Origin: Octopus vulgaris
Taxonomy: Eukaryota
DNA length: 64,000 nucleotides
Direction of reading: 5' to 3'
NCBI GenBank assembly: GCA_951406725.2
Contig: OX597825.1
Span: 69,192,001 to 69,256,000, forward strand
Shown: one piece after another, positions 1-60,883 of the stretch
How positions within the stretch are numbered: the stretch's first letter is position 1
How the letters are laid out: each line of letters opens with the position of its first letter
The notes under the pieces: generated by a model
The model's database searches: none
What the model was told of the DNA's origin: nothing
Seen by the model: the letters and a program-made list of their open reading frames with translations, nothing else
Program-made: the position numbers and the translations under genes

Positions 1-611
1 CTATGTGTGTGTGTGTATTGTTGTTGTGTGTGTGTGTATATATGTGTGTGACAAACAGACGCTGTCTGACCAGCAGGCACACGGACACATCTATTCACAC
101 CCGCATACTCACCTCCCAATAACCCCAAAATCACTGATGCTTGAAGGGGAAGTATAAACCAAATTGGGTACATATCTTTTTTTCTCTCAATTCAACTTTT
201 CTGCTAAAACAAACAGGTCAGTAAAAAACAAATTCTCGCCTTCGATTCAAAATATTCTGAGATGTCTAAAATATCCATTTTAATTTTCTCTGTCAATATT
301 ACAAGCTTTCTCACCAAACTATTACACTTCCTTATGTCTTTAACATGTCATTTCTACCAAAGACTGTATATATATACATGTAATGTGACAATTTGCGACA
401 ACCAATAATTAACGCAACCAAATTTCCAATAATATATTTGTTTTATTCTTTTCTGCCAATTTTTCCAAATATTCTCATCACACTATTGAACTTTTTTATA
501 CTATATTTATACATGTAATGTGACAATTATGTATAAAAAAACATTCTTGAATTCATAATATTCAATGTGACAATTATGTAAAAAACTTTTTTGAACCCAT
601 AATATTCAATG

Positions 612-656
612 TTACTTTTGACAATCTTTTACCAAAGAGTGAAACCGGTTAAGTAA
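612..656 (+). ncRNA. Minimal type I hammerhead ribozyme, U3-A8 core variant
   Basis: Stem I TTACTT/AAGTAA; core TTGACAA; stem II TCTTT/AAAGA plus 2 unpaired nt; GAAA; palindromic stem III ACCGGT; cleavage triplet GUU. Confidence 0.7.
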
Positions 657-731
657 ATAAACATCGTTTAAATTGCATTTTCAAACCTTTTTTCATATAT
701 AATCCCACTCGTGCGATACCCCACAACTCAA

Positions 732-17348: not shown

Positions 17349-17573
17349 GAGATGTACTTGCATAGCAAGTGATTTGATCTGAGATCGTGTGCTGGAACGA
17401 AAACAATTGCATCGTGGAAAGTGTTTGTAAGCCATGCTAGCACGGATTTTTGTCAGTGAACAGGTCGCGGTCTTAAAGCGTCGAAAATATTTTGACAAAT
17501 TAAACTTAAATGTTGAAGTGAATCGAACGGCCTTTGTGTGTTTCTTAAATGGCTTACAAACACCTTCCACTCT
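17349..17573 (+). mobile_element. Hammerhead-bearing element (same family as 21899-22549) with inverted 5' fragment
   Basis: 17349-17435 is the reverse complement of the family 3' end; the direct part contains the G3-C8 hammerhead. Confidence 0.75.
17449..17499 (+). ncRNA. Type I hammerhead, G3-C8 core variant
   Basis: TTTGTCA GTGAACA G GTCGC GGTCTTAAA GCGTC GAAA ATAT TT TGACAAA; 7 bp stem I; palindromic AAAATATTTT; UUU triplet. Confidence 0.75.
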
Positions 17574-40074: not shown

Positions 40075-40494
40075 GAAACAACCACATCCACTTAAATGCC
40101 ATCGTACTGAAATGATAAACGCGAAGGAAATCTTCGAGAATATATTTCGTTTTTGGAGTTGGCTTGCAAGATTCATTATATGAATTCGTGTGTTGAAGCA
40201 TATTCTGTTGTGTCTGGGGAGAGTCATTTTCTTTTTGTGCCTTATAATATAACACACTCATCGGTAAAATTTCCGCTTATTTCTTATTTTTCTTTTCCAA
40301 AAATTTTCGTTGCGTCTTGCAACCTTTTCAATAGTCTTGACTCTTGATAAGGTTGAAAGGACTCTTGAAAAGGTTGCAAGGCACAACCAAAATTTTAGGA
40401 AAATAAAAATAAGAAATAAGTGGAAATTTTACCTGTGCGTGTGTTACATTATAAGGCACAAAAAGAAAATGACTCTCCCCAGACACAACAGAAT
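40075..40494. mobile_element. Fold-back element with two U3-A8 hammerhead copies (40295-40336 -, about 40360-40400 +)
   Basis: ~130 bp inverted arms 40202-40336 / 40360-40494. Minus: CTA TTGAAAA G GTTGC AAGAC GCAAC GAAA ATTTT TGG. Plus copy has GAAA changed to CAAA. Confidence 0.7.
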
Positions 40495-41426
40495 TCGAGA
40501 ATATAGTTGTACGCTTAATAAAAATTAGGTATCAACATAGTTAAAACGCTTTTCAACATAGTTTCTTTTGATCTGGATTGATCTGACTCGAAACAACAAC
40601 AACAACAAGATAAATAACAGCAGATGCAACAAGAGATTATTCAACCTATTACTCAAGTTCCTCTTTCTTTTACATGTTTTCGTTTGTAACATTAAAAGAT
40701 ATCTATCGTAAATTTCCAGTGCAGTTCCCAGACAAAAAGTCAATGAAAGTTTTGTTTGAATTCCTACAAAAGATATCACACTGTGCGATAATCAATGCAC
40801 TTGTGAACCAGATAGAATGTATACTCTGATAGCTTCTGGACAATTCAATTCATAATTAATTTCGACTGTCTAAATTCAAGTCTATCTTACACAACGTTAA
40901 TGGAAATCTGTTCCAGTCAGATGTTCCAATCGATTTATATTACCATTTTTTTACGTTTTGCCTGGTGGATAACTTGGTGATAAAAGAATAAAATAGTAGC
41001 TACTATTTGTATTATTTTAAAATCACAATGGGGCGTCGTGGGTGTAGTGGCAGTGGCACAATCGTAAGAATATCGGACAAAAATCGCCTCATCGTGATTA
41101 GCTTTGGCTCTTTATGTGCTGAGTTCAAATCTCGTGGAGATCAATTTCACTTTCCTTCCTTCTGGGAAGATAAATGGTATACAAGTCAAATATTGGTAAT
41201 TCTTTTGAGCAAACTGCTGGCTTTTTAGCTCTTAGTTCTTTCAGACATTGAACTGCGGCTTTTAAGAATTCTAGTCGAATGAATCGACACCTGTATTTAA
41301 TATTTTAAAGACAGGTGCTTATTCTATCGGTCTCGTTTGCCGAACTGCTATGTTACAGGGGCATAATACACTACCACCTTTGTCAAGCCGTGGTGACACA
41401 TACACACATACACCCACATACATACA

Positions 41427-59242: not shown

Positions 59243-59301
<59 letters not shown>

Positions 59302-59330
59302 ATAAGTGTAGGTCGTATACGAGTGGGCAA

Positions 59331-59804
59331 ATATTTATAAAAAAGAAGTTTGAAAACGCCACTATATAAGATAAATTTTAATTTTCTTAGAAATTTTACA
59401 TGTTTCGGTTCTTCTTGAAAAAACGAACCTTATCAAAAATATTTTAAAAAGTTAAGTGTGATAAAAAAGTTCATAATTGTTTCTTACTGGTCACAACAGA
59501 ATCCACGTGGTGGTCTTTTTGTGGGGAGTAAGCATAATAGCTGTCTTATGTGTTCGAATAAAATTACCTTAGTTTTATTCGAACACATAAGACAGCTATT
59601 ATGCTTACTCACCACAAAAAACCACCACGTGGATTCTGTTGAGACCAGTAAGAAACAATTATGAACTTTTTTATTACACTTAACTTTTTAAAATATTTTT
59701 GATAAGGTTCAAATTTTCAAGAAGAACCGAAACATGTAAAATTTCTAAGAAAATTAAAATTTATCTTATATAGTGGCGTTTTCAAACTTCTTTTTTATAA
59801 ATAT
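59331..59804. mobile_element. ~235 bp-arm palindrome carrying two U3-A8 hammerheads (59393-59440 -, 59695-59742 +)
   Basis: Arms 59331-59563 / 59573-59804 with 9-nt spacer. Plus: ATTT TTGATAA GGTTC..GAACC GAAA CATG TA AAAT. (TA)n lies nearby on both sides. Confidence 0.85.
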
Positions 59805-60883
59805 ATATATACATATATATATATATATATTTTTATAAATATATATATATATATATATGCATATGCATAATGCACTCACATAAATATTGAACAATGCAAT
59901 ATGATAATCCTATTATAGTCGATTTACAAACCGATTACTCGGATGAGAAATTGGGTCTGGGGAATACAAAACAATCTTTTTACACATCAGAGAAGCTACC
60001 CTGCATTCTTTTCCTATCATTCCCTCTGATGTATGCCGAGATTTTTCCCCCAAACCTCTCGTGTTCGTAATCGATTGGTAAACCAGCTGTAAGAGAACTA
60101 CAGTTATTTTATATAATTGATACTACCCCATCCATTGTAAAATATGCGAATGCTTTGATTGCATCCTTCAGCAACTATATATGTGTGTGTGTGAGTGTCA
60201 GAGTGTGTGTGTGTATGTGCGCGCTCGTGTTTCTTTGACTCTGCCCTTGCGCTGTTAAGCGGTCATTGTTGTTTAGCTCACGTCACGTTAACTTTGCGGT
60301 TCGACAAAATAATCCGATAAGGTGGTACTCAATCATTCTAACCATAGAAAGAAATGAAAGAATATGCGAAAATCCAGGATAGTAAGAATACTTTTAATGA
60401 AAAGTTGAGCAAAGTCGAGGCTAAATATCAACACGAGCAACGCATAAAATATTTTGACAGTTAGAGAGAGAAAGCAATCAGATGTTAAGCTTGTATTTTC
60501 TTTTAAAAATAGACACTTTCTGAAAATAACCAGCTTTAAGTTATTTAGCATAGTAATAACAAAAATACATATACAGACATCTTTTGTTTTTCATCCGTCT
60601 GAACCTAACTGAAAGATAAGAAGACAGTAAAATGAAAATAAACATGAGGAAGAAGTGAAACAAAGATGTCTTTTTAAGAATGTTGTTTGATATTCTTGTA
60701 CATTATTTAAATATTTATGACGTTATCGTATTTATAGAATCGAAGGTACGGTCGCATTTTCTGCTACTGTTTGCAGAAACCAGCGAAAGTCGTTAATATG
60801 TTAGATAGAAAGTCATGTCCTATTCGTTCTGTCCACGTCCAAATTAACTTTTAAATTACACAAAGACACAAACACCACACACG

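What the first reader, a model, noticed from the sequence alone, without database searches (positions are those of the whole stretch)
59331..59804. Large palindrome with back-to-back U3-A8 hammerheads; U3-A8 recurs in three families
The ~235 bp arms each carry TTGATAA-GGTTC..GAACC-GAAA-CATG-TA. The same U3-A8 compensatory pair occurs in sequence-unrelated elements at 612 (TTGACAA) and 40295 (TTGAAAA). With the C-G and G-C families, three of the four possible 3-8 pairs occur in one window, which is strong internal evidence for selection on ribozyme structure. Transcription of either strand yields one ribozyme plus its antisense.
Basis: partly seen in the sequence, partly recalled or inferred. 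Interest (0 to 1): 0.75.

Follow-up and report, generated by a model that had tools for sequence, protein, structure and literature searches.

The report
Head-to-head Penelope retrotransposon ends with hammerheads
The palindrome is two shortened tail ends of one very common Penelope-type jumping gene, pasted head to head into a TA repeat; each end carries a small self-cutting RNA motif of an already described type that is predicted to be inactive in this copy, so the site is ordinary.

Summary
The palindrome (59331-59804, arms 97% complementary) and both U3-A8 hammerhead motifs are real. Each arm is the 5'-truncated 3' end (pLTR) of a high-copy Penelope-like element. Longer genomic copies carry an RT plus C-terminal GIY-YIG ORF upstream of the same arm. 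About a quarter of sampled loci have such an inverted partner. U3-A8 hammerheads, opposite-strand pairs 100-700 bp apart and inverted truncated copies are all published PLE features. Three 3-8 pair types do occur in the window (U-A, C-G, G-C). But the 612 element is homologous to this family, not unrelated, and both 40.3-kb copies are damaged. Within the family, positions 3 and 8 do not covary. Inherited changes avoid the ribozyme, whereas private changes do not, so selection acted on source elements and not on this copy. A read-through transcript is predicted to bury the ribozyme in a ~235-bp duplex. Two side results are more interesting. The ~35-nt tail lies on exactly one arm in 19 of 19 inverted pairs, which fits two-start-site priming on both target strands. 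A G3-C8 hammerhead family has 4,996 exact matches in the genome. No A3-U8 family was found.

The parts
59245..59295 (.). (TA)n microsatellite, left flank (target site)
   Evidence: sequence
59296..59330 (-). ~35-nt AC-rich PLE 'tail', present on the left arm only
   Evidence: the same tail follows 25 of 56 single copies
59331..59566 (-). left arm: 5'-truncated 3' end (pLTR) of the Penelope-like element
   Evidence: the same arm lies downstream of the endonuclease region in 30 of 30 loci
59393..59440 (-). minimal type I hammerhead motif, U3-A8 (U3 at 59436); predicted cut after A17 (59397)
   Evidence: activity not tested
59563..59566 (.). junction of the two truncated 5' ends; about 4 nt can be read as belonging to either arm (microhomology, my reading)
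59563..59804 (+). right arm: 5'-truncated 3' end (pLTR), without tail
59695..59742 (+). minimal type I hammerhead motif, U3-A8 (U3 at 59699): stem I 4 A-U pairs, stem II 5 bp, palindromic ACAUGU in place of stem III; predicted cut after A17 (59738)
   Evidence: activity not tested
59805..59850 (.). (TA)n microsatellite, right flank
   Evidence: sequence
612..656 (+). comparison site: U3-A8 hammerhead motif of a related young repeat family (family B); U.U in place of the 10.1-11.1 pair
40297..40400 (.). comparison site: inverted pair of damaged U3-A8 motifs of family C (cores 40331- and 40365+)

Best explanation
The palindrome is two 5'-truncated 3' ends of one Penelope-like retroelement family joined head to head in a (TA)n repeat, likely made in a single insertion event, and each arm carries the family's minimal U3-A8 hammerhead, which is predicted to be inactive here. 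Shown: family identity (RT then GIY-YIG ORF upstream of the same arm), variable 5' truncation, TA flanks, frequent inverted partners, and the tail on one arm only. Inferred: the GIY-YIG endonuclease nicked both strands of the TA tract; reverse transcription was primed from each nick on RNA of the same source element, once at the outer start site (with tail) and once at the inner one (without); both cDNAs stopped after about 240-270 nt and were joined at a short microhomology. Inferred from the published model: in source elements the hammerhead processes tandem PLE RNA as a dimer through the ACAUGU palindrome and/or with help from the PLE protein. This copy has no ORF and decays neutrally like its siblings; a transcript across it would fold into a long duplex that buries the ribozyme.
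For: Arm is a dispersed repeat: at least 2001 candidates; 253 exact hammerhead-pattern matches, control 0. Upstream ORF hits RVT_1 (E 2.5e-8) then GIY-YIG (E 3.1e-6), both above the Pfam cut-off in 2 of 3 long ORFs tested, with a CxxxxCxxC motif before the GIY-YIG. The arm lies downstream of the endonuclease region in 30 of 30 loci. 7 of 29 loci picked by the ribozyme pattern alone have an inverted, 3'-outward partner. Tail on exactly one arm in 19 of 19 pairs scored by motif; single copies 25 with and 31 without; 1.5e-6 if independent. Arms of one pair share subfamily variants (14-22 shared non-majority positions in L041, L077, L080, L086). Shared minor alleles in 1 of 25 ribozyme columns vs 42 of 177 others (p=0.02), while private changes are alike, 1.6% vs 2.0% (79 copies). 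Whole-palindrome fold -346 kcal/mol, stem II probability about 0; two monomers cofold through ACAUGU. Literature: PMC4209133, PMC8557442, PMC11167929.
Against: No cleavage was tested. Stem I is only 4 A-U pairs (probability about 0.14 in the monomer) and the 56-nt monomer folds no better than shuffles (z 0.08), so even the source ribozyme may be weak. No complete element with an upstream pLTR was found among 5 long loci. Fold-back copying of a single cDNA also gives arms from one source and is not excluded. In several pairs the arms are no closer to each other than to other copies (L044, L075, L076). The selection test rests on 25 columns and on related copies.
Confidence: 0.9

Rival explanations
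1. Same PLE origin, but the inversion arose by fold-back: one cDNA snapped back at a microhomology and copied itself, or a later inverted duplication took place.
For: Arms 97.4% identical vs median 94.5% to other copies; short shared junction; arms share subfamily variants.
Against: The tail-less arm ends at the same place in nearly all pairs (reference 1244-1250), and tail-less ends are also common among single copies. Self-copying gives no obvious reason for a fixed stop, whereas two RT start sites flanking the tail, with both strands extended, were shown in vitro for an anole PLE (PMC11167929).
Confidence: 0.25
2. The palindrome is a selected regulatory device at this locus: an antisense-locked ribozyme, or a dsRNA source for siRNA or editing.
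For: Both ribozyme cores are intact at this site; a perfect long hairpin is predicted on either strand.
Against: Intact cores are the norm in this young family. Such pairs are common by-products (7 of 29). Private changes hit ribozyme and flank alike. No RNA evidence specific to this locus was obtained.
Confidence: 0.05
3. A MITE or foldback DNA transposon with TA target duplication.
For: About 470 bp, long inverted repeats, TA flanks.
Against: Most copies are single arms with variable 5' ends that run into an RT-endonuclease ORF; the two ends are asymmetric.
Confidence: 0.02
4. Assembly or long-read chimera.
For: Inverted repeats beside microsatellites are artefact-prone (own knowledge); no public contig spanned the junction.
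Against: The arms differ at 7 places, only one has the tail, and about 20 other loci show the same rule-bound architecture with different breakpoints.
Confidence: 0.02

Closest known systems
Minimal type I hammerheads in pLTRs of metazoan Penelope-like elements (Cervera & de la Pena 2014, PMC4209133; parts 1-2 of 4 read)
   Same: Type I, short stem I, G10.1-C11.1, palindromic stem III; U3-A8 variant (about 1,300 hits in Schistosoma mansoni); pairs on opposite strands about 100-700 bp apart; mostly truncated single copies.
   Different: Other host and family; 2-nt palindromic insert (ACAUGU; ACGU in some copies); no bulged base between 9 and 10.1 in this family; stem I all A-U.
Neptune/Nematis-type EN+ PLEs and PLE tandem/inverted insertions (Craig et al. 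2021, PMC8557442; passages read)
   Same: RT then C-terminal GIY-YIG with CX2-5CxxC before it; inverted 5'-truncated copy at the 5' end; 30-40-bp tail often at one end only; microsatellite targets.
   Different: Here both halves are reduced to about 240 nt, so only pLTR sequence remains. Neptune vs Nematis was not resolved (no tree).
PAc Poseidon element of Anolis (PMC11167929; passages and second half of main text read)
   Same: Two ends separated by an AC-rich tail, AT-rich target, hammerhead in the pLTR. Both target strands are cut and extended in vitro, which fits the one-tail-per-pair rule.
   Different: PAc has C3-G8 and belongs to the Poseidon clade; the in vitro work does not count inverted pairs in the passages seen.
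Non-LTR retrozymes (bioRxiv 10.64898/2026.07.22.740005; part 1 of 5 read)
   Same: Non-coding, PLE-derived, type I hammerhead.
   Different: Retrozymes are head-to-tail tandem units that can give two ribozymes per transcript; this pair is inverted and gives one.

Membership tests
EN+ Penelope-like element (family of the arm) | Single ORF with RT followed by C-terminal GIY-YIG endonuclease | tested here: met
   Pfam RVT_1 then GIY-YIG in L088 and L079, upstream of the same arm; the ORF is absent from the window copy itself
EN+ Penelope-like element (family of the arm) | Hammerhead motif in the 3' pLTR | tested here: met
EN+ Penelope-like element (family of the arm) | 5' truncation, inverted 5' partner, optional 30-40-nt tail, microsatellite target | tested here: met
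EN+ Penelope-like element (family of the arm) | Partial tandem: pLTR directly upstream of a complete ORF | tested here: inconclusive
   none seen in 5 long loci, which are interrupted or 5'-truncated
Neptune/Nematis clades | CX2-5CxxC motif before GIY-YIG | tested here: met
   CxxxxCxxC in the L088 translation, also L033
Neptune/Nematis clades | Placement in an RT phylogeny | not tested
   no reference set fetched
Minimal type I hammerhead ribozyme | Core N3UGANN8A...GAAA...UH with Watson-Crick 3-8 pair, stems I and II | tested here: met
   U3-A8, GUA triplet, stem II 5 bp (p 0.93), stem I 4 bp (p about 0.14)
Minimal type I hammerhead ribozyme | Palindromic stem III allowing dimers | tested here: met
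   ACAUGU, with ACGU in several copies; cofold pairs it between molecules
Minimal type I hammerhead ribozyme | Match to an Rfam hammerhead model | tested here: inconclusive
   none among the 150 of 311 matches listed; the list was swamped by microsatellite hairpins
Minimal type I hammerhead ribozyme | Self-cleavage | not testable with these tools
   needs a bench assay
MITE / foldback DNA transposon | Palindrome of fixed length with symmetric ends as the mobile unit | tested here: not met
   mostly single arms, variable junctions, asymmetric ends
Non-LTR retrozyme | Head-to-tail tandem units, each with a hammerhead | tested here: not met
   arms are inverted

The most novel reading that the evidence does not exclude
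These palindromes are the genomic footprint of a two-ended Penelope insertion: one (dimeric) RNP primes both nicked target strands, always one at the outer and one at the inner start site (tail on exactly one arm, 19 of 19), and joins the cDNAs head to head. In the same genome, hammerhead families have fixed three different 3-8 pairs, including a G3-C8 family of about 5,000 exact copies that I did not find described as natural, while A3-U8 seems missing. Together they would form a natural mutational scan of the hammerhead core.
Probability: 0.4. Interest if true: 0.45.

Novelty: new member of a known kind. Interest (0 to 1): 0.22.

Why it matters
The site itself matters little: it is one dead insertion among many. 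The family offers two usable things. First, a countable in vivo rule (one tail per inverted pair) that bears on the open question of how PLEs make their tandem and inverted insertions. Second, a genome in which U3-A8, C3-G8 and G3-C8 hammerheads each amplified, which allows the rates of natural core variants to be compared side by side.

Tried and rejected
Rfam scan of the window: only microsatellite-hairpin miRNA matches below the gathering scores among the rows shown. A3-U8 family: two genome-wide patterns gave fewer matches than their reversed controls (291 vs 476; 165 vs 313). Of the two recurring hits, one lies inside a long-stem-II C3-G8 hammerhead and the other has no hammerhead stems. 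Patterns with AATT/AATATT stem III or without C11.1 were not searched, and only the first 100 matches of each search were seen. Compensated C3-G8 copy within the family: 0 matches. RNA evidence: no RNA holder listed on record; contigs of 4 of 24 runs were laid and none spans the junction, which is no evidence either way. An unbiased 400-kb sample gave only 4 descriptor hits (3 C-G, 1 non-pairing; reversed control 0), too few for a genome-wide tally. Linking families B, C and E to a PLE ORF: no ORF in sense within 1.6 kb upstream of B; none near C or E (tblastn). Earlier findings of the scan: none returned. Lunse et al. 2016/17 (PLE hammerhead dimers) and Przybilski & Hammann 2007 (3-8 exchanges) were not held; only their titles were seen in reference lists, and either may already cover natural or tested G3-C8. 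Supplements of PMC4209133 (larger alignment of min-HHRs) were not opened and may bear on the same point.

Full report
Observation. The stretch 59331-59804 is an inverted repeat between two (TA)n tracts. The arms align over about 233 nt with 6 substitutions and one indel. Each arm carries a type I hammerhead-like motif facing outward, with U3 at 59699(+) and 59436(-): stem I of 4 A-U pairs, core UUGAUAA, stem II GGUUC/GAACC, then GAA-ACAUGU-A. A strict descriptor found these two hits in the window and none in 20 Markov shuffles. The motif has no stem III of its own; the six bases from 15.1 to 16.1 are a palindrome.

What the arm is. The genome has 2.8 Gb in 227 contigs; an octopus-like host is my guess from size and repeat content and comes from no call. 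The arm is a dispersed repeat with at least 2001 candidates and 253 exact ribozyme-pattern matches against 0 in the control. Copies share a 3' end that runs into (TA)n and have variable 5' ends. Longer copies continue upstream into a GIY-YIG frame (the fragment alone scored below the Pfam cut-off). All 30 loci fetched with the endonuclease region carry the arm downstream. Their long ORFs hit RVT_1 and then GIY-YIG (both above cut-off in 2 of 3 long ORFs) with a CxxxxCxxC motif before the endonuclease. This is the layout of EN+ Penelope-like elements of the Neptune/Nematis type (PMC8557442, passages). No complete partial-tandem element was seen in five 9-kb loci. The window holds only the two arms of this family.

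Why it is a palindrome. Among 29 loci picked only by the ribozyme pattern, 7 have an inverted partner with 3' ends outward; one more pair faces inward and was set aside. Flanks were only 1.5 kb, so more distant partners would be missed. The left arm in the window continues into a ~35-nt AC-rich tail (59296-59330) and the right arm does not. Of 21 outward pairs (duplicated loci counted once; L022 and L094 added by hand), 19 could be scored at both ends by motif, and all 19 have the tail on exactly one arm. The other two (L027, L041) showed one tail by BLAST. Single copies had the tail in 25 of 56, so independence would give about 1.5e-6. Arms within a pair share subfamily variants where these exist (L041, L077, L080, L086), although in some pairs the arms are no closer to each other than to other copies. 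Inverted truncated partners and a tail often at one end only are described for PLEs (PMC8557442). An anole PLE cuts and extends both target strands in vitro and starts reverse transcription at two sites that bound the tail (PMC11167929). I infer one event with priming on both strands and joining at the short shared junction near 59563-59566. Fold-back copying remains a rival.

The 3-8 pair within the family. In 66 arms not selected by the pattern, 64 read T3/A8, one T3/G8 and one has a gap. In 79 copies, position 3 was T in 77 and C in 1; position 8 was A in 76, G in 2 and C in 1. Of the first 100 pattern matches listed, 95 read TGATAA. No C3-G8 copy exists under the family pattern. So there is no within-family covariation; the rare changes are single and uncompensated. 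Selection shows up differently. Alleles shared by 4 or more copies occur in 1 of 25 ribozyme columns against 42 of 177 other columns (p=0.02), while private changes run at 1.6% against 2.0%. The stem III palindrome also alternates between ACATGT and ACGT. Source elements therefore kept the ribozyme, and inserted copies decay without regard to it. The pooled count (4 of 325 vs 255 of 2263) points the same way but counts inherited changes many times.

The 3-8 pair across families. The window has U-A at 618, 40331/40365 and 59436/59699, C-G at 928, and G-C at 17456, 22230 and 22372. The G3-C8 family has 4,996 exact matches, control 0. Flanks of fetched loci gave further U-A and C-G motifs and one U.G. 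In non-random loci, 181 of 187 descriptor hits had a Watson-Crick 3-8 pair, but most belong to the four families that were searched for. The 612 family is homologous to this one downstream of the ribozyme (p<=0.001), so the two are not independent. The 40.3-kb family is not detectably related, but both its window copies are damaged. No A3-U8 family appeared in two pattern searches. Covariation across families is thus real but already known: natural U3-A8 is in PMC3088659 (passages) and, in PLE pLTRs with about 1,300 hits and opposite-strand pairs 100-700 bp apart, in PMC4209133. For G3-C8, searches gave only laboratory variants (PMC3884650; PMC11167929). Two key papers could not be read, so I do not claim it is unpublished.

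Function at this site. A transcript of either strand makes the antisense first and is predicted to fold into one long duplex (-346 and -342 kcal/mol; stem II probability about 0). The 56-nt monomer forms only stem II and is no more stable than shuffles, while two monomers pair through ACAUGU. Published minimal PLE hammerheads show no monomer activity and low dimer activity (PMC4209133; review PMC6765202), and one needs the PLE protein (PMC11167929). This copy is therefore likely inert as a ribozyme. Public runs gave no usable RNA evidence.

Verdict. This is a new member of a known kind: an inverted pair of truncated PLE ends carrying a known hammerhead variant. Interest is low for the site, and somewhat higher for the one-tail rule and the G3-C8 family.

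Noticed in passing
window 17456(+), 22230(-), 22372(+); L156-L175: G3-C8 minimal hammerhead family: 7-bp stem I, bulged G, 5-bp stem II, AAUAUU palindrome, U17; 4,996 exact matches. Short element with a fixed 5' start about 20 nt before the core, an optional ~60-nt tail, TA targets and frequent inverted pairs. No ORF link shown.
   Followed up: partly
window 40260-40560; L126-L155: Family C (U3-A8, AAUU palindrome, U17) also starts just before its ribozyme and very often forms inverted pairs with scrambled short repeats at the junction.
   Followed up: partly
window 1-727; L096-L125: Family B is very young (98-100% identity over 201 nt), extends more than 1.6 kb upstream without a detected PLE ORF, has U.U at 10.1-11.1 and shares its tail with family A.
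   Followed up: partly
window 928(-), 618(+), 17456(+): Four of the five hammerhead families in the window have U at position 17; only the family of this finding has A17.
   Followed up: no
L217, L218: A C3-G8 hammerhead family with a 6-bp stem I, C17 and an unusually long stem II of about 40 nt (read from the flanks printed).
   Followed up: no
L035, L123, L036, L020: Different PLE families, or two copies of one, sit tail to tail in the same (TA)n tract, which suggests repeated targeting of the same microsatellite.
   Followed up: no
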